This document shows positions 15,656 through 30,431 of a stretch of DNA of 40,413 bases, in pieces. Source of the DNA: a virus. Its lineage: Duplodnaviria; Caudoviricetes. The notes under the pieces were generated by a model. It had not been told where the DNA came from, made no database searches, and saw only the letters and a program-made list of their open reading frames with translations. The first letter of the stretch is position 1. The number at the start of each line of letters is the position of its first letter. Made by a program: the position numbers and the translations under genes. The stretch lies in IMG/VR virus record IMGVR_UViG_3300012953_000004, positions 1 through 40,413 of that record; one strand, written 5' to 3'.

Positions 15656-16536
15656 CTAAACTCCACAACTCTCGGATGCGGCTCATGCAAATGGCCTTCT
15701 CGGCCAGCTCTAACATGATGCTCAATAGATTCCAAAGCGTCAAGATCAAATACAGGGTTACCAGAGCGAACAAATGCCTCTTCAGGGGAAGTTGGGTATT
15801 CTTGTGCAAGTTGCCAAGGCAACATAGCGTCTTTTTTACCTTCATACCACGAATCATCTCTATCCTCAGATGCAGACCAAGGAAAAAACATAGAATCAAA
15901 GTTATTATTGCCAGTTACCGCACCTGTCCATAGATTGTGGAAAAAGTTACCCGAACCGTTTGCTGTAGAAAGTCCAATAATACGACCCCCCACATCAGCA
16001 ACAGGCTCAATAGAGGCCCAAGCCTCCTCTGGGTTAGGTAAAAACGCCCACTCATCCACAACAATAAGTGTTGCAGACTCTCCACGAGCAGGATCAGAAG
16101 CGGAAGGCATACTAGTAATCTGCGAACCGTTAGAAAACCCCATTCTTTGCTGGTGCTCAATTTCCGATTTAGGACCACGTTCAACCATCCACTTTGGCAA
16201 ATGCTTAAATCCATACTTAGTTTTCCTTAACAACAAGACCGCCTCACGTTCAGTACGTGAAAGGTCAATAATATTTTGGTCATCATGGAAATATGCCAAC
16301 CAGAACTGATGAGCAGCTACTAACGTAGTCCAACCTATCTGCCTAGCTTTGAGTGTTAGCGAATATCTTTCATCTCGCCATCTGTTAAGAGCTTCTTTTT
16401 GAGCCTCACGTAATCCAAAAAGTATGCGACCATGAGCAGGGTGAGCAATGCTCCAATAGTTTTGAAGAAAATACTCCTCGCTCTTGACACAGTTCCTCCA
16501 CTCGGCTTCTTGACGAAGCTCCGTAATACGAGCCAC
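15649..16536 (-). CDS. terL: Terminase large subunit, ATPase domain
   Basis: LKARQIGWTT (Walker A), LIVVDEWAF (Walker B), LSTANG coupling motif, QEYPTSPEEAF. Confidence 0.92.
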   Translation of the reverse strand: MARITELRQEAEWRNCVKSEEYFLQNYWSIAHPAHGRILFGLREAQKEALNRWRDERYSLTLKARQIGWTTLVAAHQFWLAYFHDDQNIIDLSRTEREAVLLLRKTKYGFKHLPKWMVERGPKSEIEHQQRMGFSNGSQITSMPSASDPARGESATLIVVDEWAFLPNPEEAWASIEPVADVGGRIIGLSTANGSGNFFHNLWTGAVTGNNNFDSMFFPWSASEDRDDSWYEGKKDAMLPWQLAQEYPTSPEEAFVRSGNPVFDLDALESIEHHVRAGREGHLHEPHPRVVEFRC

Positions 16537-16643
16537 TAGTAACCTCTAGCTCGCCCCATACCTTTAGACTTGCTTTTGGACTTCTTTTTAGCTTTAGAAG
16601 ACTTACTCTTCATACCGCTATATCCACCTTTACCTTTAGGCAT
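16536..16643 (-). CDS. Very basic 35-aa peptide MPKGKGGYSGMKSKSSKAKKKSKSKSKGMGRARGY
   Basis: Hand-translated; overlaps terS stop and terL start; GGTGG SD. Confidence 0.75.
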   Translation of the reverse strand: MPKGKGGYSGMKSKSSKAKKKSKSKSKGMGRARGY

Positions 16644-17082
16644 TTTCCACCAACCTTAATGTTCCAATTGTAGCCTCAAGCGCATCAGCCAACTCATTAT
16701 CAGACATAGAAGCTACATCACGATCCTCAGTTACAGCCACTTTACGTTTCGGCGTAAATTTATCAATATACTGTAAGTAAAGGCTTGCAGCCTTTACATC
16801 ACCATCGGCAGCACGCTGCCAAAGAGCATCTATGACGCTCTGAACCCTTTCAGGGTTTATGTTGAGTTCGGCTGCACGCCGATCCCATTCTTTAATGAAC
16901 CTAGGGTCTTTCTTAATTCGTCTTACAGAGTCCTCGTGTAGGTCGTTTTGTTTCGCCCATTCACGTTGTGTGTAGGGTTCTCTTTCTGGACCTTGTAAGA
17001 GCCAATCTAATAGTCTTAGCCAGTGGTCTGGCATAACCTTTAGGCCTGTCTCAGAATCTGTTTTCCAATTGTTCTTTCCCAT
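16636..17082 (-). CDS. terS: Terminase small subunit (HTH type)
   Basis: Start reassigned to MGKNN (AGAAAGGA SD); HTH TQREWAKQNDLHEDSVRRIKKDPRF; GDVKAASLYLQY; upstream of terL. Confidence 0.8.
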   Translation of the reverse strand: MGKNNWKTDSETGLKVMPDHWLRLLDWLLQGPEREPYTQREWAKQNDLHEDSVRRIKKDPRFIKEWDRRAAELNINPERVQSVIDALWQRAADGDVKAASLYLQYIDKFTPKRKVAVTEDRDVASMSDNELADALEATIGTLRLVENA

Positions 17083-17108
17083 AGGTTCCTTTCTCTTGTT
17101 AGCGTAAT

Positions 17109-17153
17109 TGTCCCATTCGTGCTTTACAAGTAATTTAATAAAATACTGGGACA
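17109..17153. promoter_or_regulatory. Back-to-back pair of TGGGACA motifs at the late/early divergence point
   Basis: TGTCCC 17109-17114 and GGGACA 17148-17153 flank an AT-rich spacer. Confidence 0.55.
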
Positions 17154-17530
17154 CTTTGCACAATAGGTACTAAGTACTTAGAACAAAATTTCGTTTACCT
17201 CAGTAAAAAGAAATTTTGGTACTGGGTAGTTTCATATCGCTAACAGCACTTTGTGATAGCCAGAGCTTCTAAAAACCAAACGGAACGGATATGGATTAAT
17301 AATTATTATAGGAAACAAGGTACGGGGGGGGCCGTAGGGGTGCATCGCCAGTCCCTGTGCATAATGCGCACCGACTGGTCAGTCTTCTCACGCCAATTCC
17401 TTCGCACAAGAAGAAAACTAGTCCTGACCTGCTGTTATATCTCCTCCAGTCCTGCAGTTATGTGGGGGGATCTGCGCAGGTAACCGTGCTGCTGGAGAGA
17501 GCTGAACCCCATCTAGTCTGGTCAAAAACT

Positions 17531-17582
17531 ATGCAACAACGTAGTTGTTGTAAAAAGTACCTGAGGAACGAAGGTACTTTTT
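17531..17582 (+). promoter_or_regulatory. Tandem hairpins upstream of the first early gene
   Basis: CAACAAC-GTA-GTTGTTG then AAAAAGTACCT-GAGGAACGA-AGGTACTTTTT. Confidence 0.6.
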
Positions 17583-17617
17583 CCTTCCACGACAACCAAC
17601 CAGAAAGGAGTTCGGCG

Positions 17618-17851
17618 ATGAACTCTTACAGAGAATGGCGAAAACAACAATCATTTACAAAACTTCCAGTTTTCCTTTGGAAAATAAAGGTGAAACTTGG
17701 CTACCATTTTGAGGACAATCCTGTCTTCTGCGATGGTCCTATGTACTTCTTAGAGGACTGCTACGATGAGTTCCTTTATTCACCGCTTGCGACTTTCCTT
17801 AGAAAGTTAGGCATAGTGAAATCCGATCCTTGGACTTCTACGGAGATCTAA
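17618..17851 (+). CDS. First early gene, hypothetical (77 aa)
   Basis: AGAAAGGAG SD before ATG 17618; followed by a terminator. Confidence 0.75.
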   Translation: MNSYREWRKQQSFTKLPVFLWKIKVKLGYHFEDNPVFCDGPMYFLEDCYDEFLYSPLATFLRKLGIVKSDPWTSTEI

Positions 17852-17854
17852 AGA

Positions 17855-17898
17855 GAAAGGTGTGCATGGTGATAGTATCACTGTGCGCACCTTTTTTT
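17855..17898 (+). terminator. Rho-independent terminator
   Basis: AAAGGTGTGCATGGTGAT-AGT-ATCACTGTGCGCACCTTT followed by a T-tract. Confidence 0.85.
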
Positions 17899-17972
17899 GT
17901 GTCCTGTGACCTGTATGCGTAGCACCTTGAAAAGGTGGAGAAAAGGGGTCGCTAACAGGACGAGAGGAAACC

Positions 17973-18028
17973 ATGCTACTACGTTAAGTAGTAGTGAATT
18001 ACCCCTTCTTAATTGAAGGGGATAATTC
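17973..18028 (+). promoter_or_regulatory. Tandem hairpins upstream of the second early gene
   Basis: CTACTAC-GTTAA-GTAGTAG then GAATTA-CCCCTTC-TTAATT-GAAGGGG-A-TAATTC. Confidence 0.6.
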
Positions 18029-18059
18029 CCTTACACAACAACGACTGGGAGGTCGGCAA

Positions 18060-18491
18060 ATGACAACACAAATCACAATCAGCAAAGCTGAAGCGAAAGC
18101 AATCCTTGGATTGGCCTCAAAAATCAGCAGGGCAGAAGGCCTGAAGGAAGATGCACCTGCGGTTAAGCCAAAGGCTTCTAAGGCCAAGAGTCCTAAGATG
18201 TCGGCAGATCGTGCTGAGAACCTTAAAAGGTTGGCCGAGGTTAAGCCTAAGTCAGCTAAGAAACCACGTGTTGAGGCTAAGCCTCGTGTAGTTTCTAAGT
18301 CGGCTAAAAGCCATGCTAGGTCAATTCTTAATCGTAAGATTAATGGTCATAAGAGTGCCTCAACGTTAGCGTTGAGTCGTGGAGAAAGAGAAGTGGCTGT
18401 TGAACATCTCCAGTCTGCGCTGGACATTTGTCCTGCGGACTGGGATAGTGTGATGGAGTCCATCAACCGAAGGTTAGTTAAGCTAGTCTGA
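18060..18491 (+). CDS. Lys/Ala/Pro-rich basic early protein (histone-H1-like linker)
   Basis: ACTGGGAGGT RBS; AVKPKASKAKSPK, VKPKSAKKPRVEAKPR. Confidence 0.75.
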   Translation: MTTQITISKAEAKAILGLASKISRAEGLKEDAPAVKPKASKAKSPKMSADRAENLKRLAEVKPKSAKKPRVEAKPRVVSKSAKSHARSILNRKINGHKSASTLALSRGEREVAVEHLQSALDICPADWDSVMESINRRLVKLV

Positions 18492-18492
18492 A

Positions 18493-18549
18493 GTTGAGGC
18501 TGATACGCTTGCATCATGGGGGTGGTGTAGGCGTATTGGCCCTTCAAAT
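18493..18549 (+). terminator. 19-bp G-U-rich RNA stem-loop (terminator or processing site)
   Basis: GCTGATACGCTTGCATCAT-GGGG-GTGGTGTAGGCGTATTGGC directly after the stop codon. Confidence 0.65.
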
Positions 18550-18559
18550 TGGTTCAGGT

Positions 18560-18602
18560 TATAGTTTATTAACTTGAATTAATGAAAGTTAATAAACATA
18601 TA
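18560..18602 (+). promoter_or_regulatory. Bulged-A hairpin with TATAGT at its 5' base
   Basis: TATA-GTTTATTAACTT-GAATTAATGA-AAGTTAATAAAC-A-TATA. Confidence 0.65.
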
Positions 18603-18622
18603 GATGACTGGGAGGTCAGAAC

Positions 18623-19063
18623 ATGGAAACAGTAAACCCACTAACAGGAGCGCCAGATTCATTCGGTTGGTCCGAAGAACCAGCAGTTCCTGCTGAAAGT
18701 AAATTGCCTAAGTTGTACACGATCACAGATGATCCTGAGATGCGTGTTTACTGGGCAGATTGGAAGAACCCAGCCCTTTTCTCTCCAGAGAAATACACGC
18801 TTGGTGAGTATGAGCTACTCCAAGCTGTTGGCATGGATCCAAGGAGAACCTTGGATTATGACGATGCGTTTGAAATGGGCAGTCAAGCTCTAAATATGGT
18901 CTTCTGTGAAGGTCAGGGAGTGTGGCTGGAAGATGGCTTTCAGGTAACTGAAGACTATTGGGTTAATGAGTTCCGATACCTGTATGAAACTAGCGTGGAT
19001 TCCGATTGGGAACATGACGGTTTTGAGTACGTTATATCCGAGGAAGATTTTCTCGGAGCTTAA
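18623..19063 (+). CDS. Acidic early protein (146 aa)
   Basis: ACTGGGAGGT RBS; Asp/Glu/aromatic-rich. Confidence 0.8.
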   Translation: METVNPLTGAPDSFGWSEEPAVPAESKLPKLYTITDDPEMRVYWADWKNPALFSPEKYTLGEYELLQAVGMDPRRTLDYDDAFEMGSQALNMVFCEGQGVWLEDGFQVTEDYWVNEFRYLYETSVDSDWEHDGFEYVISEEDFLGA

Positions 19064-19085
19064 TTAGACTGGGAGGTCTACACAC

Positions 19086-19445
19086 ATGTTTACATTCACC
19101 GTAACCCTTGGGTTAGAAGATGATTTTGGTGGCGAATACAATAGCGATTGGATTGGACGGTACGTTCAGTCTAGTCCTCATGCACAGTCCATGTTTACCG
19201 TGTTTACCATTGCTAATGGTAAGGGCATTGACACTGACACCAATAAGGAAGAACCTGTCCTTGTGTTACAAGGATTTTGTGAATCCGAAAGGCTGTTAGA
19301 CGACACACACGATTACTTCAGGGGTGTCGCTACAGATATGCGCCAAAGAGGATTTGGCTGGTTTCAGTCCAGTATCAGTAGTTACGCTTACACGGACTAC
19401 GGCCAAGATGTTATGGAACATAACTTGGAAGCCGAATTAACATAA
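19086..19445 (+). CDS. Early protein, candidate SAM lyase-like (T3 0.3 type)
   Basis: ACTGGGAGGT RBS; TVTLGL...G..EEPVLVL...VATDMRQRGF pattern; gene solid, function tentative. Confidence 0.4.
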   Translation: MFTFTVTLGLEDDFGGEYNSDWIGRYVQSSPHAQSMFTVFTIANGKGIDTDTNKEEPVLVLQGFCESERLLDDTHDYFRGVATDMRQRGFGWFQSSISSYAYTDYGQDVMEHNLEAELT

Positions 19446-19455
19446 ACGTCTTAGT

Positions 19456-19486
19456 GGTTTACCCCTCTTTATTGAGGGGATAAACC
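19456..19486 (+). promoter_or_regulatory. Bulged-A hairpin
   Basis: GGTTTA-CCCCTC-TTTATT-GAGGGG-A-TAAACC. Confidence 0.6.
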
Positions 19487-19511
19487 TCTTAGCTAGATTG
19501 GAGAAAAGATA

Positions 19512-19775
19512 ATGTATTTGAAGTCACATCCGAATAGGCAGATCATTAAGGTCTGTTTGCAACATGATGGTCATGGTCGTTACTACGGTGTAGTACTGGT
19601 CAAATGGGCCAACATTGACCCTGAAGAGTATGTCGTGTGGAGCTGTGGCTCCAACGATCACGAAATGGCGCTAGAGACGGCTCATGGCGACTATGTGATA
19701 GGGCGTGATGAAGCTGAGAAAGTGTTTGCTCGTAGAGCATCCATTCATAGGATAGGAGTAAAATTAGATGCCTAG
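19512..19775 (+). CDS. Hypothetical early protein (87 aa)
   Basis: GGAG SD; EYVVW...HGDY...EAEKVFARR. Confidence 0.75.
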   Translation: MYLKSHPNRQIIKVCLQHDGHGRYYGVVLVKWANIDPEEYVVWSCGSNDHEMALETAHGDYVIGRDEAEKVFARRASIHRIGVKLDA

Positions 19776-20052
19776 TGGAACTATTAACGGTGTAACCGTT
19801 GCCATAGGACATGGCGACTTGATCGCATTTCTTCCATGTTCCCATTGTGGGAAAGAAGAAACGGTTAAAGCTAAACACAAAGACGTGCAGGCATATCTGC
19901 GTGGTGCTCTTGTGCAAGAGGTGTGGCCTAAAGCTACCCCTGCTTACAGGGAGCAAATGATAGGGTTGCGTAATGGTGGGAACCACTACCATTGTGACAC
20001 CTGTTGGAGTGATCTCTTTGGAGATGACGACGACGAAGACGACAATTGGTAA
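19768..20052 (+). CDS. Zn-binding hypothetical protein
   Basis: CSHCG...CDTCW; AGGAG SD; acidic tail. Confidence 0.75.
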   Translation: MPSGTINGVTVAIGHGDLIAFLPCSHCGKEETVKAKHKDVQAYLRGALVQEVWPKATPAYREQMIGLRNGGNHYHCDTCWSDLFGDDDDEDDNW

Positions 20053-20070
20053 GTGACCATAGGAGGTCAA

Positions 20071-20283
20071 ATGAAAAATAGTGAAAGAAACCGTTTACGG
20101 TATCGTAAGCTGAATGCACAGTTGGCTAATGCCACCAAGTTTAATAAATCAGGTGAAACTGAGAGAATGGTGGAAGCGCTTAACAGCGCATATAAGCTAG
20201 CTTCTACACCTACGGTGTGGCCACACGAACAAGAACGTGTGTTAAAGTCAGCTAAAAAGCACGGCGCTATAGTCGGAGCTTAA
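20071..20283 (+). CDS. Basic hypothetical protein (70 aa)
   Basis: AGGAGGT SD before ATG 20071. Confidence 0.7.
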   Translation: MKNSERNRLRYRKLNAQLANATKFNKSGETERMVEALNSAYKLASTPTVWPHEQERVLKSAKKHGAIVGA

Positions 20284-20289
20284 CAGGTG

Positions 20290-20364
20290 GGGCCTCGTGT
20301 GAGGCCCTACTACAGGGTGCATATGTAACGTCCCCCATGTGCATCCTGTAGTGGGTAAACCACT
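20290..20364 (+). other. Multi-hairpin structured intergenic RNA element
   Basis: GGGCCTC/GAGGCCC hairpin; 20-bp stem 20306-20325/20336-20355; alternative AGTGG/CCACT hairpin. Confidence 0.6.
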
Positions 20365-20382
20365 AAAATACTGGGAGGTATT

Positions 20383-20934
20383 ATGTACACAACTTTAGAT
20401 TGGCTAATTGTATGCGTTCTAGGCGGACTTGGTGTCGGCTTGTATATAGGATGCGTATTGCACTTTCGTGAACTTTGTGAAGTTCAGGAAATTTACCAAG
20501 CGCAAGTAAAAAAGCTTGCAGAGCAAGAATACAACGGTTGGGTCAACCGTGAAACGTGGGCTTTTATGCTGTGGCAAAGCGGTGACGCTTTTCTTTACGA
20601 TCTTATGCGTGAGATGTCTGCGCAAATAGCTGTAGACCAGCTTATATTCCAAGATCCTTATGAGACTACTAAAGGCCACTTTAGTAATAGGGGTATGACA
20701 GAGATAGAGCATCGCAACTTAGGCGCTGAGTATATAGACCAGTGGTCAGCTTATGCTGAAGAAATGGTTGAGTCGGATTACAACGAACACTTTAGTGCAG
20801 CTCTTAGCGACATTGGCTCTATGTGGCGTGTAGACCCTCAAGAGATAGGCGAAGCCTTAGAAGAATCTGTCCGTGAGGACATTTTCAATGGCTTTAACAT
20901 TGCTACCGTGGAGGTGGTTGGCGAAGATGATTGA
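20383..20934 (+). CDS. Hypothetical protein with N-terminal TM helix and YNGWVNRETW motif
   Basis: ACTGGGAGGT RBS; WLIVCVLGGLGVGLYIGCVL; YNGWxNxETW is a recurrent phage early-gene motif. Confidence 0.75.
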   Translation: MYTTLDWLIVCVLGGLGVGLYIGCVLHFRELCEVQEIYQAQVKKLAEQEYNGWVNRETWAFMLWQSGDAFLYDLMREMSAQIAVDQLIFQDPYETTKGHFSNRGMTEIEHRNLGAEYIDQWSAYAEEMVESDYNEHFSAALSDIGSMWRVDPQEIGEALEESVREDIFNGFNIATVEVVGEDD

Positions 20935-21199
20935 CATAGATTCTTACGAATACCTAGAATCCGAACACCACAGGGCTAGGAAAATCTTGGATAACCACGG
21001 GTTATTTGATTGGGTTGCTTTACCCAACGAACGAGAGCTAGTTAGGCGTATAGATCCTAAGGATTATTACGCAAATGAAGAGTGTCCGAAGGACAAAGAC
21101 AATGGCGATTTTATGTGCCAAGGGTGTGGTGAGTGGTTTGGTAAAACTCTTACGTTTACAGCATATGTGTGCCACTGGTGTACAGGGGCGCTGACTTAG
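20927..21199 (+). CDS. Zn-finger hypothetical protein (90 aa)
   Basis: GGAGGT SD; CQGC...CHWC. Confidence 0.7.
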   Translation: MIDIDSYEYLESEHHRARKILDNHGLFDWVALPNERELVRRIDPKDYYANEECPKDKDNGDFMCQGCGEWFGKTLTFTAYVCHWCTGALT

Positions 21200-21469
21200 A
21201 TGGTTTACAGGGAGTTATGGACACCTATTAAAACCCTTAAGGTTGAAGGCAAGCGTTACCCTTTGGAACGTGGTCGGCTTTTCAAGGTAAAGGGAGAACG
21301 AGGGGTCTACAGGGTCATGGACATGTTTGCGCATAAGGACGACCCTAATCGGATTGAGATTCACGCTTGGTGGCGTGATAGAGAACTGTTCACAGGCGGT
21401 AAAGCTATGTGGAGGTACGTCAGGCCTAATGACGTTAAACGGATTTTAGGCAAATTGGAAAAAGTATAA
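21200..21469 (+). CDS. Hypothetical protein resembling an actinophage family (DUF7246-like)
   Basis: LERGRLFKVKGERGVYRV...WRYVRPNDVKRI pattern, recognised from memory. Confidence 0.6.
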   Translation: MVYRELWTPIKTLKVEGKRYPLERGRLFKVKGERGVYRVMDMFAHKDDPNRIEIHAWWRDRELFTGGKAMWRYVRPNDVKRILGKLEKV

Positions 21470-21507
21470 TAATTATTACTGAATTAATGAAGTAATAATT
21501 ATATATA
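21465..21507 (+). promoter_or_regulatory. Bulged-A hairpin with TATAAT at its 5' base
   Basis: TATA-ATAATTATTACT-GAATTAATGA-AGTAATAATTAT-A-TATA. Confidence 0.65.
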
Positions 21508-21523
21508 GAACTGGGAGGTTCAA

Positions 21524-22054
21524 ATGAGTAATGAAATTGAAGTAAAGCTTGTGCTAGATAAAGCGCAATTAGATGGCCCTACTGCGTTGCAGTTAGTGGA
21601 GATGTTTAAGCAAATAGCTGGCAATGAGGCGTTTGGTAACGCTGTTGAGCAGGTGTTTCACGATAGGTCCAGCTTTGTAGCTGATCTCAAAGGCATAATG
21701 AATGTGCAAGATACCGATGACCTTCGGTACGACATTCTTAATAGCTACGACTTTGAAAATGCTACAGAAGCAAACATTGAGAACTGGATAAGCAATAGTG
21801 ATTTGCACTACTTGCCTGATGAAGTTCAAGATTTAAGGCATGGAGTTGAAGAGCTTGACGTAGGCGACATTCGGGATCGTTTGGACACGATTGAAGACAA
21901 GCTAAGCATAGATACGAGTGAAGAAGATTACCGTACAATAGACGGTCTTCAGGAACGTGTACTTGAGCTTGAAAAGAACGTTGCTAACCTAATGGCGATC
22001 AACGAACGTCAAATGCACCTTATCCATAACATACAAGGAGTGGAGCTTACATAA
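21524..22054 (+). CDS. Acidic coiled-coil protein (176 aa)
   Basis: ACTGGGAGGT RBS; heptad-like C-terminus. Confidence 0.8.
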   Translation: MSNEIEVKLVLDKAQLDGPTALQLVEMFKQIAGNEAFGNAVEQVFHDRSSFVADLKGIMNVQDTDDLRYDILNSYDFENATEANIENWISNSDLHYLPDEVQDLRHGVEELDVGDIRDRLDTIEDKLSIDTSEEDYRTIDGLQERVLELEKNVANLMAINERQMHLIHNIQGVELT

Positions 22055-22062
22055 GAGCGTTG

Positions 22063-22114
22063 GGGTGTGGCAGTACCTTCTTTGCCGAAACCTGTCACAC
22101 CCTTCGTATAAAAT
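22063..22114 (+). promoter_or_regulatory. Stem-loop overlapping a putative promoter GTCACACCC-N6-TAAAAT
   Basis: GGGTGTGGCAG/CTGTCACACCC stem; same motif and spacing at 24052. Confidence 0.55.
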
Positions 22115-22146
22115 ATATACAACAATGACCAGAGGAGGTCACAATT

Positions 22147-23151
22147 ATGACATGGGCTAAAGATTTCATGTTTAACAAAGGAGATGACGACACGCCAACA
22201 GCGTCCGTCATGCTCAAAGCACAACAGGTAGGGGCAGATTTTGATGTCACCTATTTACCAGCAGGTTTCCTGAAACAAGCTGTAACGTGGCAAGAACCAG
22301 AGTTCACGGTTCCTGTCTACGACTCAGGCGAGTATGAAGGTAAACCTAAACAAATGTACATTGTCCGTGATGACACTAATGAGGTGGTAGGTCAACACTC
22401 ATCCAAGTACCCAAAGCGTGATGCGTACCATCACAACTTTCAGGTCTTGGAGAATGCGTTCCCTAATTCTTGCGAGAATGTCCAAGTTTGGGATAATGGA
22501 GGCTTATGCCTTGTTACACAACGCATAGGTGATGAGGTTGAATTGCCTATGGGAGATGAAGTTGTCCAATACGTTTACAGCGTTATGTCCTTGAATGGAA
22601 CCAAACGCACAATGACCATACCCAAAGCAAGCAGGGTTTCCTGCACAAATGCGCTGGGTTTAACGTTGGCTATTATCTCGTCAAAGGCTACTCGTAACCA
22701 TGACGCTAGAATTTCATTCCAAGCTGAAGTGTTTGAGAAATCAGAGATTCAGTTAGATGCGCTAGTGAGAATGGCTAAAGTCTTTACTAGTAAAAACTTT
22801 ACAGATCAGGAGTTCTCACGTTTAGTGGACAACCTGTTAGAAGTTCCTGATAAAGATGCCAGCACTAGAGCTGTCAATACGTACCAACGTACTCGTAACA
22901 GTATGTTCACTACATGGCGGAAAGAATGCCAAGAGTATAACGACCAAAACATGTGGCTTGCATACAACGCAGTCCAAGGTGCGGAACAGCATCGTGTAAA
23001 CGCCAACTTTAAAGCCGAGGACGACAAGGGCTATGAAGCTGGTCAAAAGAAATCCATCTTTAACGCTCTTGAAGGTGGTACACCCCTAGCTGAATCTTGC
23101 GAAAAATATTTGCGAGCAGAGCTAGATGCGCCAGAAAAGGCGCTAGTATAG
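22147..23151 (+). CDS. DUF932 (LGT_TIGR03299-like) protein
   Basis: IVRDDTNEVVG..SSKY, SLNGT, RVSCTNAL, TRNH, NMWLAYNAVQGAEQH. Confidence 0.8.
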   Translation: MTWAKDFMFNKGDDDTPTASVMLKAQQVGADFDVTYLPAGFLKQAVTWQEPEFTVPVYDSGEYEGKPKQMYIVRDDTNEVVGQHSSKYPKRDAYHHNFQVLENAFPNSCENVQVWDNGGLCLVTQRIGDEVELPMGDEVVQYVYSVMSLNGTKRTMTIPKASRVSCTNALGLTLAIISSKATRNHDARISFQAEVFEKSEIQLDALVRMAKVFTSKNFTDQEFSRLVDNLLEVPDKDASTRAVNTYQRTRNSMFTTWRKECQEYNDQNMWLAYNAVQGAEQHRVNANFKAEDDKGYEAGQKKSIFNALEGGTPLAESCEKYLRAELDAPEKALV

Positions 23152-23153
23152 GT

Positions 23154-23241
23154 GGAGGTCTAGGTGGGACTGCCGTCCATGACACGAAAGTGTAGTGAAT
23201 GACCTCCCTCTCTGATGGCAGTTCCACCTCTCTAACGAGAG
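23154..23241 (+). ncRNA. Putative structured RNA (16-bp stem, GNRA hairpin, anti-SD loop, possible pseudoknot)
   Basis: 23162-23177 pairs with 23214-23229; ACAC-GAAA-GTGT; GACCTCC 23201-23207 complements GGAGGTC 23154-23160. Confidence 0.5.
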
Positions 23242-23247
23242 GGAATT

Positions 23248-23610
23248 ATGATAGTAATAAACACGGACGGTGCGTTTGATGTCGTGCCGTATAACGATGG
23301 CGTTCTTGTAAGGACCCATCACACAGAGTGTCTGCGAAAAATGATGACACGAATACATGGCAAGAAATGGGTGTATGCCCACCTTGCTGATCACATTAAA
23401 CACACACCCAAAACAAGGTGGAAATGGCGAATGACTCTCCATACTCACGATTGGACTGGGTATCTAGGTAAATGCACTCGTGCTATGGACTATGACTTTC
23501 TGTACGACAAAATGATCACAGAGGAAGACATAACTACTACGAAATTGCATGGAATAGCAGGTGTTTACACACACATGAAGAAAGGGTGGTCCCATGTTAA
23601 ACAAGTATGA
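23248..23610 (+). CDS. Hypothetical protein (120 aa)
   Basis: GAGGG SD; VINTDGAF..VLVRT..HTP..WR..MDYDF pattern. Confidence 0.7.
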   Translation: MIVINTDGAFDVVPYNDGVLVRTHHTECLRKMMTRIHGKKWVYAHLADHIKHTPKTRWKWRMTLHTHDWTGYLGKCTRAMDYDFLYDKMITEEDITTTKLHGIAGVYTHMKKGWSHVKQV

Positions 23611-23806
23611 AGTGACATTCTTGTACACATATGAAGACACAGAGACAGTTGAAGTTGTCGCTAACAGTGAGTGTGAAGCTCAAAGGCTAGCGGAAGACGA
23701 GCGCTCTGGACCAGATTATGCGTGGAATCACGCAGCTCTGACAATGGACAATATATGGTCTGTTGACGAAATAGAATCAGATATAACCGAGGAGGTTGAT
23801 GCCTAA
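23594..23806 (+). CDS. Small acidic hypothetical protein
   Basis: KYEVTF...VEVVANSECEAQRLAED; overlaps neighbours. Confidence 0.7.
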   Translation: MLNKYEVTFLYTYEDTETVEVVANSECEAQRLAEDERSGPDYAWNHAALTMDNIWSVDEIESDITEEVDA

Positions 23807-24063
23807 TGGCTGAAATATTAAACGAGTTTCCTGCACACCTGAGACAAGGTATAAAAGGTAAACCCCCAAAATACCAAGAAGAATGGTTTGATGGGCGTGC
23901 AAGAAAACTAAACTATTACATAGATTTACAAACGTATTCAGACATGAACTCTGCTCGTACATCGCTTTACACACAAGCAAAAAGGCGTAACATGCGAGCT
24001 TTGATAGCCCAACAGGGAGATAATTTATATTTTCAGGTTGTGGATTTAGAAGTCACACCCTAA
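23806..24063 (+). CDS. Putative DNA-binding protein (85 aa)
   Basis: GGAGGT SD; basic; PKYQEEWFDG...ARTSLYTQAKRR...LYFQ. Confidence 0.55.
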   Translation: MAEILNEFPAHLRQGIKGKPPKYQEEWFDGRARKLNYYIDLQTYSDMNSARTSLYTQAKRRNMRALIAQQGDNLYFQVVDLEVTP

Positions 24064-24120
24064 AGTTATACTAGTACTTAGTACATAATCACCCTTTAGG
24101 GGGTGATTATGATACTAAGT
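24052..24120 (+). promoter_or_regulatory. Putative replication-module promoter GTCACACCC-N6-TATACT plus bulged-A hairpin
   Basis: ACTTAGTA-CATAATCACCC-TTTAGG-GGGTGATTATG-A-TACTAAGT at 24076-24120. Confidence 0.6.
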
Positions 24121-24143
24121 AACTACTGGAGGTATTGTTAGCG

Positions 24144-24956
24144 ATGAGTCTTTTTCCGATTCATTTAGATGAAAAAGGACGTTACGTTCACACATGGGTT
24201 AGGCAATCGTCTGTAAAAACAGCCGACATGTGTATGGAGCGTCTAAGAAATAGCATGTTTCACTTGAGTGAAGAACCCAAGAACGATGGGGCTGAGTTAG
24301 GCACAGCGTGCCATCAAGCCGTAGAGGATTTGTTGCTCTCTCGCATTGAGCAAGAAGCTGAAATGACAGAGCATGACATGTATGACGCATTTGACTACTA
24401 TTGGGATGAAATGTCCGAAGAGGTAGACAACTGGTACTCGTACGGAAATGCTAATAAAGCGAGGGATAGCGGACGTGGAAAGTTAAAAAGTTGGTATGAC
24501 AACGTTTTGCCCATGATCCAAAATCCTGTGGGTGTAGAAGTAGGTTTCAACAAGTTGCTTATAGAAGATGATGAACGTGTTGTGTATTTGCGTGGCACTG
24601 TAGACCTCGTAGAAGAGGGAGTTCTTTGGGATTGGAAATTTCCTAAAGCAGACTACACACGTGACCGTTGGCAATATGACCGATGGGACGTTCAAAGTAT
24701 TGCCTACACATGGGCGTTAGATGTTCCTACCTTTAGGTTTGGTGTTATGCACAATAAAGGTTGGGGAACAATGGAATTTACACGCAACGAATCACATGTA
24801 GAGTGGTTGCGTAACAAGGTCGCTAGTATCTGCCGATATGTTGAGAACCAAACAGCTCCTTGGCTGTTAGGGGACAACGGTTGGTGGTGTAGTGAAAAAT
24901 GGTGTCCATCTTGGACACAATGTAAGGGTAAGAAAAGCCCAGAAAGCGAGGAATAA
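24144..24956 (+). CDS. Cas4/RecB-like PD-(D/E)XK exonuclease with four Fe-S cysteines
   Basis: SS...C, GTACH..VE, GTVD, DWK, Q..AY, CSEKWCPSWTQC; GGAGGT SD favours ATG 24144. Confidence 0.88.
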   Translation: MSLFPIHLDEKGRYVHTWVRQSSVKTADMCMERLRNSMFHLSEEPKNDGAELGTACHQAVEDLLLSRIEQEAEMTEHDMYDAFDYYWDEMSEEVDNWYSYGNANKARDSGRGKLKSWYDNVLPMIQNPVGVEVGFNKLLIEDDERVVYLRGTVDLVEEGVLWDWKFPKADYTRDRWQYDRWDVQSIAYTWALDVPTFRFGVMHNKGWGTMEFTRNESHVEWLRNKVASICRYVENQTAPWLLGDNGWWCSEKWCPSWTQCKGKKSPESEE

Positions 24957-24957
24957 C

Positions 24958-25659
24958 ATGGCTTACTCCATGACTCCTTATGAAAGAGCGTCCATAGAGG
25001 CGCAAGTCTGTATAAAAGCAGGCGTTGAGATGGCCGTAGCTGAAATAAGCAACGGCGGTTCAGGTGGTGTGTCACTTGCTTTAGCAAATGCACTAGCACT
25101 TGCTGAATCACTTGGTGACTTGAAAGATGTCATCGTTGGTGAAACTGCAAACGCACCTCGTCCTGTTCCGATGACTACAGAGGCAGACATAAAGGCTGCG
25201 TTCCCAACTGCGGTAACGCAAACCACTCCCTCTGGGCAAACATCACAATACATCTCCGATGAGGATTACTCATTGGTCAACAAATTATTCATGCACGAGA
25301 AGGCAAACGGCATAGCCTACGCCTCCAAGGACTCGGTATTCATGGATAACCAAGCTATTAGGAAGCTATTTGCCGAAGGCACAAGGCAATTCCCACCAGA
25401 CTACTGGGCGGAATCCATGCGTGGCAGAGAAATACCTACAACTAAAACAGGCAAATGTGCTCTTGGTGATTTTAAAATCAAAAAGGGTACAAGCGTAAGT
25501 GCTGATGGCACTCCCATTTTGGGGAATGGTGAAGGCAATCACCCACTTGCGAACAAATCAGGTTACTTCGGTGGCTTGGTTAACCACACGCCTTTTAGTT
25601 GGCCTGACCGTCCTGCACCTATTGATCCTAATGGGTGGTTAGCAGGAATAAGTGGCTAA
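24958..25659 (+). CDS. Hypothetical replication/recombination protein (possible SSB or annealing partner)
   Basis: GAGG SD; between exonuclease and helicase; ERASIEAQVCIKAGVE helix. Confidence 0.5.
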   Translation: MAYSMTPYERASIEAQVCIKAGVEMAVAEISNGGSGGVSLALANALALAESLGDLKDVIVGETANAPRPVPMTTEADIKAAFPTAVTQTTPSGQTSQYISDEDYSLVNKLFMHEKANGIAYASKDSVFMDNQAIRKLFAEGTRQFPPDYWAESMRGREIPTTKTGKCALGDFKIKKGTSVSADGTPILGNGEGNHPLANKSGYFGGLVNHTPFSWPDRPAPIDPNGWLAGISG

Positions 25660-26638
25660 CAAGCGTCTGTCTATGACAGATGCAATGGATTTGCTGGGGC
25701 AGTCACAAACTGCCTCAGCAGTCCATAAAGACGTTAAAGGGGTCAGTGACTCAGACTTAAAGCGATTATTTACACCTAAGACAGAGCAGATGAAACGTAT
25801 GCGCTCTGATCTTCGTGCAGGCGGAGAGTGGCGCTTTGGTATTGAGGCTTTTGACTCAGCAACTCTAGGAGGCGCACGAGCAGGACAGCTTGTGACCCTC
25901 ATAGGGAAAACGCATACAGGTAAAACTATGGTAGCTATGAATATGGTTGCAAAGAACAAGAATCACCGTACTCTATGGGTGAGTCCAGATGAGACAGAGA
26001 CTATGTTCTGGGGCCGATACTCGGCCATGAAACTGCAGATTCCCCAATCTGACTGGCTATCTAGGCTTATGCGACAGGATGAGATGGCGTGGGAGCGCAC
26101 ATCTCAGATAGTCCAAGACCAAAAGAACCTACATTTTGAGTCCACAGGCATGTCTGTAGACGACTTAGATAAAGCCTTGCGAATAGCATCAACAGAACTG
26201 TGGGACGGTGAACGTCCGCATGTTCTTGTGTATGATTACCTTGAGCTGATAAGGGGTGGCACAGGCGATGCACAAAGCGTGCAAGCCAAGATTGAATCCT
26301 TTAAACAGCTAGTTTCCGATTGGCGCATAATAGGCGTTATGCTGCATCAGTCGGGACGAGGTTCAGGTACTCGTGGAACTGCAGGAGGCATTGACTCTGG
26401 CAGATACGGTTCTACATCTGAAAGCCATTTCGTTATAGAGACATGGCGCAGGTGGGACGACACTAGCCTTGACGAGGAAGATCGTGCCTACTACCAGAAT
26501 GAGATAAGCGTTGGCTTATGGAAAAACAAGGCAGGTGAAGGAACTAAGGCAGAAGCGAACCTGACGATAGACCCAAGTGGACGACTGCTTGAAGCAGGCG
26601 TAACGTGGGAGCAGAGGGAGTTGGATCTAGATGAATGA
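25652..26638 (+). CDS. DnaB-like (SF4/RecA-fold) helicase
   Basis: GKTHTGKT, VLVYDYLELI, LHQSGR, WKNK. Confidence 0.9.
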   Translation: MANKRLSMTDAMDLLGQSQTASAVHKDVKGVSDSDLKRLFTPKTEQMKRMRSDLRAGGEWRFGIEAFDSATLGGARAGQLVTLIGKTHTGKTMVAMNMVAKNKNHRTLWVSPDETETMFWGRYSAMKLQIPQSDWLSRLMRQDEMAWERTSQIVQDQKNLHFESTGMSVDDLDKALRIASTELWDGERPHVLVYDYLELIRGGTGDAQSVQAKIESFKQLVSDWRIIGVMLHQSGRGSGTRGTAGGIDSGRYGSTSESHFVIETWRRWDDTSLDEEDRAYYQNEISVGLWKNKAGEGTKAEANLTIDPSGRLLEAGVTWEQRELDLDE

Positions 26639-27650
26639 AGAACTAGTCCGAGATTTCGTAATGCTCTTTAAAGGGTTTCCTAACGCTTACGGAACCAATG
26701 AAGGTGGATGTAGATGGGAAAAGCCAAACTTTGAAAACCATCTCTTCGGAGATAGGGAAGATGACATGATTGGCACATACCCGATGGTTTACGATCCTCA
26801 TTGCAAGCTAAACATGCAAGGCCCAGAAGCCTACGACTCTGAGCGTAAATACACAGAAATGCAACCAGATATGTGGCATTGCATTTGGGGTGCTATTGAC
26901 ATAGACGAAGGCGATGACTCGCTAGACTATGCCTTTAACGCCCAGACAATACTTAGAGCTTTAGAGATACCTAGTTGGGTAGAACTCTCAAGGTCCAAAG
27001 GATGCCATGTGTGGGTATTTTGTGAAGAATGGGTTACTGCCAAGCTGATACGCAAGGTGTTAAAAGGTGTTATGCAAATAGGCAAGATACCTTACGATGC
27101 CGTGTACCCTAAGCAAGATTTTCTTGATGGGCCAGTTGGCAACTACATGAGGCTTCCTTATGGCTGTAAGCGACCCAAACAACGTCAGGTAATGATAAAC
27201 CACACAAGCGAACCATACGACTTAGAGTCGTTTCTGTTTACAGCGATTGACAGAAAGGCTAGCAAAGTGGCTTTAGAGGCAGCGTCTACGCTGTATAAAG
27301 AGCCACAGGCTGACTTGCCACCTCCACGTGAGTACTCCAAGGAACCGTTGATGACGGCAGATGGCAGTAAACTTCGTGGAGCTTCTAGACGAATGTATGA
27401 AGACGGTCCTGTTCAGTATTTTCTTACAGGACAAGGCGCAGGTCGTGGTCGCCACGGCTTTCTACACAGATTTGCTAGAGCAATGTGGGAGTCAAAGTAC
27501 CAGAGAGGTGATATAGTTTCATGGACTGCAGATCTAGACGCTCGTCTTGGTCTATGGTTTAGTGAAGGACCTAAATTCTCTGGGAGGCGAGATGCCGAAA
27601 AGCAAATCCAAAAAATCGTTGATGACGCAGGCTCAAGAGCCTTGCGTTGA
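26631..27650 (+). CDS. AEP-superfamily primase (TOTE-like)
   Basis: HLFG..IGTYP, WGAIDID, ELSRSKGCHVWVF, VYPKQ, GNYMRLPY. Confidence 0.88.
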   Translation: MNEELVRDFVMLFKGFPNAYGTNEGGCRWEKPNFENHLFGDREDDMIGTYPMVYDPHCKLNMQGPEAYDSERKYTEMQPDMWHCIWGAIDIDEGDDSLDYAFNAQTILRALEIPSWVELSRSKGCHVWVFCEEWVTAKLIRKVLKGVMQIGKIPYDAVYPKQDFLDGPVGNYMRLPYGCKRPKQRQVMINHTSEPYDLESFLFTAIDRKASKVALEAASTLYKEPQADLPPPREYSKEPLMTADGSKLRGASRRMYEDGPVQYFLTGQGAGRGRHGFLHRFARAMWESKYQRGDIVSWTADLDARLGLWFSEGPKFSGRRDAEKQIQKIVDDAGSRALR

Positions 27651-27981
27651 GTTCATTGTTGAGGGCCGACCCAAGCCAAAGGGTCGCCCTCGCATGACTC
27701 GTAGGGGTAGAGTGTATACACCCATAGAAACGATAGAAGCTGAAGAACTTTATGCTGAAACAATAGCAGACAAATACGAACAATTTGAGGGGCCTGTGAC
27801 AGTGATACTTAAATTCAGCAAAGACAACACTTACGTTCAGATTTGTTCAGCAGGAGATTGGAAATCTCCCTTGCGTGGAGATCTGGACAATTATATTAAA
27901 TTGGCTTTAGACGGCATACAACGTGCAGGACTTATTAAAAACGACAAACAAGTTGTCCACGTTGATGCCATTAAGGTATGA
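27592..27981 (+). CDS. rusA: RusA-like Holliday junction resolvase
   Basis: PKPKGRPR, YTP..T, GDLDNYIKLALDG, NDKQV. Confidence 0.9.
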   Translation: MPKSKSKKSLMTQAQEPCVEFIVEGRPKPKGRPRMTRRGRVYTPIETIEAEELYAETIADKYEQFEGPVTVILKFSKDNTYVQICSAGDWKSPLRGDLDNYIKLALDGIQRAGLIKNDKQVVHVDAIKV

Positions 27982-27982
27982 G

Positions 27983-28420
27983 ATGAGTTTTAAGGATAGA
28001 GATTTTGAACACAGGTTTAAGATGATGGGTGACATAGCGGAACAAGCATTTGAAACCATATGGCACACTAATTGGGAGAGATTTGGGCTAAATAGGCCTA
28101 GGTTAAAGATGAGTGCTTTGCCACCAGTAATCAGGCACACGCCCGATTACCTAACGTCTAACAACCTCGTAGAAGTGCAAGGCTTAGGCAGGGATCAAAC
28201 GCTTAAGCTTAAGCTTGAAAAGTACGAAGCGCTAGAGTGGTGGAATAAAGTTCACCCACTTTTGTTTTTCGTTTATGACTCCCATAATGATCGGGCGCAT
28301 TCCCTTGAATGGAAAGCCCTAAAAAAACTGTGCAAATACGCACAAATTGAAGAATTTCCTGAAGGGAAAAAGTACTATGCCATACATGCTGAACTAATAT
28401 GGGGTAATGGCAAAACGTGA
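27983..28420 (+). CDS. PD-(D/E)XK-like endonuclease
   Basis: GDIAEQAF, HTPDYL, LVEVQG (Q replaces the usual K). Confidence 0.65.
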   Translation: MSFKDRDFEHRFKMMGDIAEQAFETIWHTNWERFGLNRPRLKMSALPPVIRHTPDYLTSNNLVEVQGLGRDQTLKLKLEKYEALEWWNKVHPLLFFVYDSHNDRAHSLEWKALKKLCKYAQIEEFPEGKKYYAIHAELIWGNGKT

Positions 28421-28784
28421 CTTTATTATTGACCCGATTGAAGCATCGTGGATATTTGATAAAGCATACAACAAACAGAAACACAGAGTAGCCACAGCAA
28501 TGGAGGCTCTTATGCTTGCGGAACCTCACAAAACGCCTGAAGTTTCCTTAGAAGAGCAACACGACCTTAGAGAAATCCTTGTTAGCGCATTAGACACACT
28601 TGAACCTATAGAGCTTTGGATCATCAACGCTTTACTATTTGAAAAGTTAAGCTTACGAGAAGTTCAACACATATTAGGAATACCAAAAACCACTCTTGCT
28701 AGAAAGCGAGACAGAATCTTAGAAAAACTAAGAAACAAAATACGAACCATCCCACAAGTAAAGGAGTATCTAGATGGACAATAA
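28407..28784 (+). CDS. Sigma-70 region-4-like HTH protein (candidate late regulator)
   Basis: ALDTLEPIE..II...FEKLSLREVQHILGIPKTTLARKRDRILEKLR. Confidence 0.8.
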   Translation: MAKRDFIIDPIEASWIFDKAYNKQKHRVATAMEALMLAEPHKTPEVSLEEQHDLREILVSALDTLEPIELWIINALLFEKLSLREVQHILGIPKTTLARKRDRILEKLRNKIRTIPQVKEYLDGQ

Positions 28785-29334
28785 TAACGACATAATGCCT
28801 AGGTATTGGGAAGATGCAGCAGGCTTAATGGCTTTTAGAATAGACGATGCCAGAGGCAGAGGTTTAAAACACCCAAATGCAGAAGAAGGATTCTTTGCAT
28901 TGCTTAAAGCTATACGTGAAGAATACGACACTTGGTGCATAAAACTTTATGGGGTGTTAGACGAAGACATTGACGAAACAGTAGTAGCTAATTGGTTTAC
29001 TGCGTTTGCGACACTGGTTTTAGACGCAGGCGAAACACACATAGAGATTAACATTCCTGATGCGGAATCATTGTTGCCGTTGCTTACAGCAAAACAACAT
29101 GATTACGGACACATGAATATTCAAAAATTTGGGTTAGACGGCATTCTAGTCAGGATGCACGACAAGATAGCTCGCTTAGAGAACCTGACAATGCGTTCTT
29201 ACGACATAGGCGATGATGAACTTTGCGAAGCAAAAGCTGACACCATCGCAGACCTAGTAGGATACTGCATAATTGCGTGCATGTACGCTTATGAAATATG
29301 GATGCTCCCCATGCAACTTGACGACATTGATTAA
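28774..29334 (+). CDS. DUF1599 / nucleotide-modification-associated domain 1 protein
   Basis: KQHDYG..NIQKFG..GILVRMHDKIARLENL...DTIADLVGYCII. Confidence 0.85.
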   Translation: MDNNNDIMPRYWEDAAGLMAFRIDDARGRGLKHPNAEEGFFALLKAIREEYDTWCIKLYGVLDEDIDETVVANWFTAFATLVLDAGETHIEINIPDAESLLPLLTAKQHDYGHMNIQKFGLDGILVRMHDKIARLENLTMRSYDIGDDELCEAKADTIADLVGYCIIACMYAYEIWMLPMQLDDID

Positions 29335-30411: not shown

Positions 30412-30431
30412 ACCTATAAGACTCCTTGTCC

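What the first reader, a model, noticed from the sequence alone, without database searches (positions are those of the whole stretch)
17531..18028. Homologous tandem-hairpin cassettes before the first two early genes, one with a C-GTA-G triloop
Seen: ATGCAACAAC-GTA-GTTGTTGT (17531) and ATGCTACTAC-GTTAA-GTAGTAGT (17973) differ by compensatory A/T swaps. Each is followed at once by a second hairpin and then an RBS. Knowledge: C-GNA-G triloops are exceptionally stable in DNA and form N4 virion-RNAP promoters. Inference: structure-encoded earliest promoters or DNA-entry signals, perhaps recognised by the giant ejected protein. I did not find an RNAP catalytic motif in that protein, so this link is speculative.
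Basis: partly seen in the sequence, partly recalled or inferred. Interest (0 to 1): 0.8.

Follow-up and report, generated by a model that had tools for sequence, protein, structure and literature searches.

The report
Duplicated DNA-hairpin early-gene start cassette
A marine phage opens its first two early genes with the same cassette of two back-to-back hairpin-forming palindromes that close relatives keep by paired mutations; the cassette likely works as folded DNA at a start site for the host's RNA polymerase, and it does not fit the N4-type promoter first proposed.

Summary
Both cassettes are real and conserved: all 56 stem cells pair in 7 copies from 4 genomes, with compensatory changes. 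The N4 reading fails. The GTA loop lies on the non-template strand, close relatives have AAA there, and no RNA polymerase was found in the 3,916-aa giant protein (not fully excluded).

The cassette joins two family-wide elements. Hairpin 1 is a C(R-N-A)G DNA mini-hairpin. In relatives such hairpins crowd the first 1-2 kb of the early arm: 66 of 89 leader triloops, 31 on one strand and 35 on the other, flipping strand at homologous sites. Hairpin 2 is a strand-polar long hairpin (70 sense, 2 antisense) just before the ribosome-binding site of many early genes, with near-perfect pairing and DNA-type tips.

Cassette 2 follows a terminator-like hairpin and heads the family's usual first gene. Cassette 1 is a copy in front of a swappable gene (three alleles).

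Best reading: a duplicated, PeSL-like promoter-leader for host polymerase, likely gated by cruciform extrusion. The main rival is T7-like RNase III processing of hairpin 2. Function is untested, and earlier scan notes report similar hairpin fields in unrelated phages.

The parts
17525..17535 (+). Shared upstream box AAAAC-TATGCA; candidate -10-like hexamer at 17530-17535 (TATGCT in most relatives)
   Evidence: sequence; AAAC, ATGC invariant in 7 copies; promoter role inferred
17533..17551 (.). Cassette 1 hairpin 1: 7-bp perfect palindrome, C(GTA)G loop, basal G.T pair; DNA mini-hairpin type
   Evidence: loop AAA in L001/L002, GTA in L003
17552..17582 (+). Cassette 1 hairpin 2: 11-bp stem, tandem GA/GA, G(GAA)C tip; member of the per-gene polar hairpin family
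   Evidence: compensatory changes in L002
17583..17617 (+). A/C-rich spacer and Shine-Dalgarno (17605-17610)
   Evidence: sequence
17618..17851 (+). Swappable first early gene, 77 aa, no family hit; replaced by an unrelated 98-aa gene in L001/L002 and by 628 other bases in runs X3 and X6
17860..17898 (+). RNA-type hairpin with G.U pairs (17860-17890) followed by T7 (17892-17898): intrinsic-terminator-like
   Evidence: terminator role inferred; an L087 homolog lacks the T tract
17923..17937 (.). Small hairpin CACCTT-GAA-AAGGTG; loop GTA in L001/L002
17968..17977 (+). Upstream box of cassette 2, AAAC-CATGCT (TATGCT in L001/L002)
17975..17995 (.). Cassette 2 hairpin 1: 7-bp palindrome, loop GTTAA, basal G.T pair
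17996..18028 (+). Cassette 2 hairpin 2: 13 bp with one bulged A; basal G-C is A-T in L001/L002
18060..18491 (+). Second early gene, 143 aa, K/A/P-rich; homolog of the gene that comes first in L087, L011, L097, L003, L108
   Evidence: blastp E 4e-23 to 0.05 in a small set
18564..18597 (+). Further per-gene hairpin (12 bp, GA/GA tip) before ATG 18623
19456..19486 (+). Further per-gene hairpin, homologous to 17996-18028 with the same bulged A and covarying base, before ATG 19512
21469..21502 (+). Further per-gene hairpin (12 bp, same tip as 18564) before ATG 21524

Best explanation
The two cassettes are copies of one conserved module (upstream box, short DNA-type palindrome, long sense-strand hairpin, A/C-rich spacer, ribosome-binding site) that likely serves as the start site of the two earliest transcription units for the host RNA polymerase and likely acts through folded DNA. 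SHOWN: anatomy, covariation, duplication, gene swapping behind cassette 1, strand-independent DNA-type loops of the hairpin-1 class across the family, strict sense polarity and near-perfect pairing of the hairpin-2 class. INFERRED: (1) the early arm is the genome end that enters first; (2) AAAAC-YATGCW holds a -10-like element, so hairpin 1 would span about -8 to +9; (3) negative supercoiling would extrude the palindrome, as for N4's 5-7 bp hairpins, so that DNA topology gates initiation; (4) hairpin 2 folds on the sense strand, as DNA or in the transcript, and marks each gene module; (5) cassette 1 arose when an extra gene with its own terminator was placed ahead of the family's usual first gene.
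For: Hairpin 1 and the upstream box were found only at the two unit starts: after the leader and after the terminator-like hairpin 17860-17898. L003, which lacks the inserted gene, has a single copy, directly before the gene-2 homolog. DNA signature: in 55 leaders, 66 of 89 unique triloop hairpins (stem 6 bp or more) are C(R-N-A)G on one strand, 31 top and 35 bottom, against 41 of 305 in control DNA; 123 non-unique observed against a mean of 0.33 in 30 mononucleotide shuffles. In L093 vs L095, 6 of 9 homologous loops differ, all 6 switch strand and all keep the motif. In 32 dereplicated leaders the density is 0 per kb at -1000 to -250, 6.3 at 0-250 and 3.3 at 750-1000 nt from a conserved anchor beside terS; control 0.1. 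T7 has 4 of its 6 such hairpins in its first and last 100-140 bases. Such loops are far more stable in DNA than RNA (PMC13037366). An N4 hairpin placed between -35 and -10 silenced a host promoter in a gyrase-dependent way (PMC4496689). Hairpin-2 class: 70 sense, 2 antisense, 0 control; 49 of 64 have 11 perfect pairs, with 6 G.T and 0 A.C in 704 pairs; 29 of 78 tips are R-N-A triloops and none is a closed GNRA or cUUCGg. A TANNNT hexamer lies 16 nt before the first long hairpin in two separate lineages.
Against: No transcript data. No -35 element was seen, and the consensus scan lists no promoter at either cassette. The window's own hexamers (TATGCA, CATGCT) each miss a key base. Of 24 first hairpins listed, only the window lineage and the L025-L158 lineage show the 16-nt TANNNT, and 7 show no TA/CA-NNN-T in 60 nt. 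There is no conserved upstream motif for the hairpin-2 class, and 36 of 67 copies lie within 18 nt of the upstream stop codon, which is the T7 RNase III layout. G.T exceeds A.C on the sense strand (27 vs 4 in 96 hairpins), as RNA folding would also give. The mini-hairpin field is patchy: 5 or more in the first 1.2 kb in 10 of 32 leaders, none in 11 of 32, and only 1-2 in the window's lineage. Cassette 2's loop (GTTAA) is not a triloop. The genome end is not mapped. Related phages are not independent samples.
Confidence: 0.42

Rival explanations
1. Hairpin 2 is an RNA element: an RNase III processing site or 5' stabiliser that cuts or shields a polycistronic early mRNA just ahead of each ribosome-binding site, as in T7. 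Hairpin 1 is a separate DNA feature or stacks on hairpin 2.
For: Position between stop codon and SD (36 of 67 within 18 nt of a stop; 60 of 78 with an SD within 55 nt). Strict sense polarity (70 vs 2). Main stem of 11-14 bp in 48 of 78, then a mismatch or bulge and a short lower stem, matching the ~11-bp minimal RNase III helix (PMC3867540) and the layout of the T7 hairpins before genes 0.3, 0.5, 1, 1.1 and 1.3 (their naming as RNase III sites is recalled). G.T 27 vs A.C 4.
Against: The T7 upper stems each carry 2 G.U in about 9-10 pairs (my reading), against 6 in 704 here. Tips are DNA-type, with no closed GNRA or cUUCGg in 78. The same early regions hold a separate class richer in G.U pairs (55 G.T per 785 WC pairs). 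It does not explain hairpin 1.
Confidence: 0.27
2. The palindromes serve the genome end rather than transcription: terminal-repeat duplication, packaging, a replication origin, an injection pause, or protection of the entering end from nucleases.
For: The field starts abruptly at a conserved anchor next to terS and decays with distance, even through coding DNA. The T7 ends carry the same loop type. Mini-hairpins resist nucleases and occur at phage priming sites (PMC13037366). The T5 injection stop region is palindrome-rich (10.1101/866236).
Against: In the window's lineage the field is nearly absent, and hairpin 1 is duplicated together with the gene start, which ties it to expression. Ends were not mapped.
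Confidence: 0.13
3. N4-like hairpin promoters read by a virion RNA polymerase inside the giant ejected protein.
For: C(GTA)G loop on a 7-bp stem at the head of the early region; giant protein of N4-vRNAP size (3,916 aa; homolog P0001 3,917 aa).
Against: Wrong strand, central T, and A rather than C at the N4 +1 position. Loop not conserved. No T7/N4 or double-psi-barrel motif. Only 5 homologs for a 1,121-aa middle part among 1.84 billion proteins. No PDB sequence hit and no significant fold match for two segments.
Confidence: 0.06
4. A put-like antiterminator RNA: two stems one base apart at the start of each early transcript modify host RNA polymerase.
For: Two stems separated by a single T in all 7 copies; about 50 nt long; a terminator-like hairpin downstream; HK022 put has two stem-loops behind early promoters (PMC9378689).
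Against: The tandem form was found only in this lineage, while hairpin 2 occurs alone before many genes. Stem 1 is a plain 7-bp palindrome with a DNA-type loop. No Rfam match in the window.
Confidence: 0.05
5. Non-adaptive: template-switch or snap-back mutagenesis perfects palindromes where DNA folds most easily, and loop micro-inversions flip them.
For: Would give perfect stems, DNA-stable loops and strand flips without selection (general knowledge); the field is patchy across relatives.
Against: The middle loop base varies while positions 1 and 3 stay in the motif. Hairpin 2 keeps a fixed place and polarity before ribosome-binding sites. The cassette is kept while the gene behind it is replaced.
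Confidence: 0.07

Closest known systems
PeSL (promoter-early stem-loop) cassettes of T4-type phages (PMC2839356, passages; PMC4122927, parts 1-2 of 3 read)
   Same: Repeated intergenic cassette with stem-loop and Shine-Dalgarno in front of small variable early genes; genes are exchanged at the cassette.
   Different: No sigma-70 -35/-10 pair; two tandem hairpins; DNA-type loops; a 40-kb podovirus-like genome; terminator and promoter activity untested.
Coliphage N4 early promoters P1-P3 (PMC4496689, passages and part 1 of 3 of section 2.1 read)
   Same: Short stem closed by C-G with a G-N-A triloop near the head of the early region; extrusion by supercoiling is plausible.
   Different: Loop on the non-template strand here and on either strand in relatives; no conserved -11 purine or +1C; no virion RNA polymerase found.
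T7 early RNase III sites (record V01146; PMC3867540, passages)
   Same: A hairpin with an internal irregularity shortly before the SD of successive early genes.
   Different: Stems here are nearly free of G.U, tips are DNA-type, there is a conserved 3' TGA irregularity near the tip, and cleavage is not shown.
T7 genome-end palindromes (V01146 positions 26 and 66, repeated at 39803 and 39843)
   Same: C(ATA)G and C(TTC)G triloop hairpins concentrated at the physical ends.
   Different: Two per end in T7, against up to about 22 per 1.2 kb in relatives here, running into coding DNA; ends here are unmapped.
HK022 put RNA (PMC9378689, passages)
   Same: Two adjacent stems behind an early start.
   Different: No bulged or triple-helix stem I; the second stem occurs alone elsewhere; no sequence comparison was made.

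Membership tests
N4 virion-RNAP promoter | C-G closed G-N-A triloop on a 5-7 bp stem | tested here: inconclusive
   Met in window cassette 1 and L003; AAA in L001/L002; GTTAA in cassette 2
N4 virion-RNAP promoter | Stable loop on the template strand | tested here: not met
   GTA is on the sense strand of the early genes; N4's own hairpins read TTC/TCC on the sense strand
N4 virion-RNAP promoter | Purine at -11 and +1C eleven bases away | tested here: not met
   Central base T17542; the N4 +1 position would be A17531, pointing leftward
N4 virion-RNAP promoter | Phage encodes a T7-like virion RNA polymerase | tested here: inconclusive
   No motif, family, PDB or fold match; models had mean pLDDT 49 and 53 and covered 1,971 of 3,916 residues
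PeSL cassette | Sigma-70-like -35 and -10 boxes | tested here: not met
   No site at either cassette in the consensus scan; only a -10-like hexamer
PeSL cassette | Intergenic stem-loop plus Shine-Dalgarno at the 3' end | tested here: met
PeSL cassette | Gene exchange at the cassette | tested here: met
   Three alleles behind cassette 1; five different first genes among 8 loci of the L025-L158 lineage
PeSL cassette | Stem-loop terminates and cassette promotes transcription | not testable with these tools
   needs a reporter assay
T7-type RNase III processing site | Helix of about 11 bp or more with an irregularity at the cut, between stop codon and SD | tested here: met
T7-type RNase III processing site | Cleavage by RNase III | not testable with these tools
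   no RNA data; needs 5'-end mapping or an in vitro assay
HK022 put antiterminator | Two adjacent stem-loops downstream of an early promoter | tested here: inconclusive
   Two stems one base apart; promoter position unknown
HK022 put antiterminator | Conserved put sequence, triple helix and binding to the beta-prime zinc domain | not tested
   No direct comparison with put sequences was made; no Rfam match in the window

The most novel reading that the evidence does not exclude
A mirror-image of N4. In this abundant marine phage family each early gene is headed by a DNA hairpin designed to stay folded only on the non-template strand (tandem GA, G-N-A tip), so that supercoil-driven extrusion leaves the template strand open for initiation without a sigma-type promoter. 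The strand-independent mini-hairpin field nucleates cruciforms along the entering genome end.
Probability: 0.15. Interest if true: 0.85.

Novelty: new variant of a known kind. Interest (0 to 1): 0.55.

Why it matters
How podoviruses without their own RNA polymerase time early genes and treat the first-entering DNA is poorly known. This family offers natural experiments: loops that flip strand at homologous hairpins, a duplicated start cassette, and a polar per-gene hairpin with DNA-type tips. Together they give small, directly testable substrates for topology-gated initiation or for an undescribed processing signal. The cassette also marks the point where first-expressed genes are swapped. None of my 10 literature searches returned a description of these elements in this family. 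The library lacks most subscription papers, and earlier notes of this scan record similar mini-hairpin fields in unrelated phages, so the field itself is not new to the scan.

Tried and rejected
Rfam: no match in the window. Sigma-70 consensus scan: 18 sites against 25.7 expected in 16000-30500, none at the cassettes. Metagenome pattern scan: 17 hits, 3 of them the cassette (L168, L181, L182, matching forms already seen) and 14 unrelated. Expression: no RNA holder listed. Genome ends: contig ends showed no common position, though a few stop at the G-rich anchor; the one raw-read run laid a single read. Promoter logo upstream of the hairpin-2 class: no conserved motif; TANNNT in 19 of 67 against 9.6 +/- 2.8 at random places, confounded by stop codons. 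RNA polymerase in the giant protein: motif scans, Pfam, PHROGs, NCBIfam, PDB sequence search, ESM Atlas (best 0.86, no common family) and three Foldseek searches of two low-confidence models gave nothing significant; one weak row named a virion RNA polymerase (E 0.12, TM 0.07) and I do not count it. Residues 1-609, a stretch of about 280 aa between the two models, and the last ~1,050 residues were not folded; the VIA-align searches were not run. CCTTCGG in coding DNA was checked and pairs as a TTC triloop, not a UUCG tetraloop. Integron attC likeness (recalled) was dropped because the arms begin with GTT and end with AAC, the reverse of attC. Host: one relative is binned in an Acidimicrobiaceae MAG and another in an archaeal MAG, so the host is not settled. 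Look-ups of earlier findings by place returned nothing. No supplementary files were consulted.

Full report
Setting. The window is a complete circular phage assembly with a 123-nt terminal overlap. It encodes a portal, scaffold, capsid, a terminase in two reading frames, a small terminase, helicase, primase, RusA and an amidase endolysin. Small unknown genes run rightward from 17618, divergent from terS. The 3,307-aa ORF continues in frame across the overlap with ORF 3-1892 to give about 3,916 aa; a homolog of 3,917 aa exists. Runs holding half or more of the region are labelled marine or seawater metagenomes where a label is given. The host is not settled: relatives are binned in an Acidimicrobiaceae MAG and in an archaeal MAG, and the endolysin points to a bacterium.

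Observation. Both cassettes are as described. Seven copies from the window, L001, L002 and L003 keep all 56 stem cells of hairpin 1 paired, with compensatory A/T swaps at 2 of 8 pairs and an invariant basal G.T. Hairpin 2 also covaries at its base and inside its tip. The loop of hairpin 1 is GTA in the window and L003, AAA in L001 and L002, and GTTAA in cassette 2.

Why there are two. Gene 2 is a homolog of the gene that comes first in L087, L011, L097, L003 and L108 (weak for all but L087). Gene 1 is exchangeable: a 77-aa gene here, an unrelated 98-aa gene in L001/L002, and 628 other bases replacing 17600-17909 in runs X3 and X6, with matching loose ends in X2. In X2, X3 and X6 no differences are listed inside the cassettes. 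A G.U-containing hairpin with a T7 tract (17860-17898) follows gene 1. I infer that cassette 1 is a copy placed ahead of an inserted gene and that each cassette starts a transcription unit. In another lineage with near-identical leaders, 8 loci carry 5 different first genes.

N4 test. N4 promoters need the G-N-A loop on the template strand, a purine at -11 and +1C (PMC4496689: passages, first part of section 2.1). In the N4 record the hairpins upstream of gp1 and gp2 read TTC and TCC on the sense strand (I identify them as P1 and P2 from recall). Here GTA is on the sense strand with a central T, so an N4-type enzyme would fire leftward from an A. Motif scans, family scans, PDB sequence searches and Foldseek on two models gave no polymerase. 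The models were poor (mean pLDDT 49 and 53) and covered 1,971 of 3,916 residues, so absence is likely but not proven.

Hairpin 1 belongs to a DNA mini-hairpin class. I gathered relatives through terL (80 loci kept of 277), the PD-(D/E)XK nuclease (80 of 111), the DUF932 gene (3 loci, 1 used) and genome contigs (2). Some loci come from the same contig, so hairpin counts use unique sequences where stated. Perfect stems of 10 bp or more occur at 0.76 per kb upstream of these anchors and 0.095 per kb downstream (445 in 588 kb against 100 in 1,052 kb, non-unique). In 55 non-coding leaders, 66 of 89 unique triloop hairpins with stems of 6 bp or more are C(R-N-A)G on one strand, 31 top and 35 bottom, in 24 loci; controls give 41 of 305; 30 mononucleotide shuffles give a mean of 0.33 against 123 non-unique observed. 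Between L093 and L095, 6 of 9 homologous loops differ; all 6 switch strand and stay in the motif. In 32 dereplicated leaders the density (counting also TTTA, TAAA and TT loops) is zero from -1000 to -250, 6.3 per kb in the first 250 nt after a conserved anchor beside terS, 3.3 at 750-1000 nt, and near background beyond 2-5 kb. It is patchy: 5 or more in 10 of 32, none in 11 of 32. The window has a weak version, 10 of its 17 such hairpins (stem 5 or more) in 17.5-21.1 kb (nominal p 3.5e-7 with boundaries chosen afterwards). T7 has 6 in 39.9 kb, 4 of them at its two ends. These loops are much more stable in DNA than in RNA and resist nucleases (PMC13037366, passages). Strand-independence points to a cruciform or either-strand DNA fold, not to RNA or a strand-specific reader.

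Hairpin 2 belongs to a polar per-gene class. A symmetric search found 161 unique long hairpins within 80 nt of an SD in 61 early regions, against 7 in controls. Under a strict definition (9 or more perfect pairs below a 3' GA irregularity) there are 78 in 32 loci; the typed forms number 70 on the sense strand, 2 antisense and 0 in controls. Main stems are mostly 11-14 bp (48 of 78). By my tally 29 of 78 tips are R-N-A triloops, about 22 are two-base loops, and none is a closed GNRA or cUUCGg. Of 64 scored over 11 pairs, 49 are perfect, with 6 G.T and no A.C in 704 pairs. In a looser set G.T beats A.C 27 to 4, many of them at the lower mismatch. No upstream promoter motif is conserved, and 36 of 67 lie within 18 nt of a stop codon. 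Position and geometry match T7's RNase III hairpins (PMC3867540, passages), but T7's upper stems carry 2 G.U each. Whether this class folds as sense-strand DNA or as RNA is not resolved; I put the two near even.

Mechanism. The box AAAC-Y-ATGC-W and hairpin 1 were found only at the two unit starts. TATGCT is a plausible -10 hexamer (general knowledge of TANNNT), and an unrelated TAGCTT lies at the same 16-nt distance from the first long hairpin in the L025-L158 lineage. Most other lineages lack it, and the window's own copies are imperfect. If it is the -10, hairpin 1 covers the melted region, and extrusion would gate initiation; an N4 hairpin did silence a host promoter in a gyrase-dependent way (PMC4496689). 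I give this reading 0.42, RNA processing by hairpin 2 0.27, a genome-end role 0.13, neutral origin 0.07, N4-type 0.06 and put-like 0.05. The first three are not fully exclusive.

Comparison and novelty. It works most like a PeSL cassette (PMC2839356, passages; PMC4122927, parts 1-2 of 3) but fails the sigma-70 promoter feature, so I do not file it as one. It is not an N4 promoter. put (PMC9378689, passages) and the T5 injection stop region (10.1101/866236, passages) are more distant analogies. 10.1101/2025.11.10.687097 (passages) added nothing. Ten searches found no description of these elements in this family. Earlier AI notes of this scan report like fields in unrelated phages; they are leads, not evidence. 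Verdict: real, conserved, a new variant of phage early start cassettes, with function unproven.

Noticed in passing
window:3-1892 and 30432-40355 (-): One giant ORF of about 3,916 aa split only by the window ends. Only its last ~470 aa are matched across many relatives (loci reach only its C-terminal end). A kinase-like stretch is suggested near residues 1150-1350 of the 3,307-aa part by weak local Foldseek rows.
   Followed up: partly
window:17168-17228 and 24075-24121: TACTNAGTA boxes flanking a hairpin, once before terS and once before the nuclease-helicase operon. 228 boxes upstream against 1 downstream in relatives; no G.T bias (2 vs 7 A.C). Likely a DNA operator or middle/late promoter element.
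   Followed up: partly
L006, L011, L019 early leaders: Tandem arrays of 10-18 long perfect palindromes, many built around TACTNAGTA or CT-TT/AA-AG cores.
   Followed up: partly
L093, L095, L011 first early gene: C(TTC)G hairpins written into coding sequence every 25-35 nt through Pro-Ser and Ser-Ser codons.
   Followed up: partly
window:17109-17153: TGTCCCA...TGGGACA inverted repeat upstream of terS, seen in many relatives.
   Followed up: no
window:14987-16536 (-): Large terminase in two overlapping ORFs (ATPase 295 aa, nuclease 222 aa); natural split or frameshift not examined.
   Followed up: no
window:18498-18541, 20309-20358, about 22067-22104, about 23163-23230: G.U-rich RNA-type hairpins between early genes, distinct from the per-gene class; candidates for terminators or RNase III sites.
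   Followed up: partly
window:28407-28784: 125-aa protein resembling sigma factor region 4; a candidate reader of the TACTNAGTA element.
   Followed up: no
L185:26-82 (T7): T7's ends hold C(ATA)G and C(TTC)G triloop hairpins, 4 of only 6 in the genome.
   Followed up: partly
window:17357-17372: GCATAATGC palindrome in the leader, found in both orientations in some relatives (18 upstream against 9 downstream).
   Followed up: no
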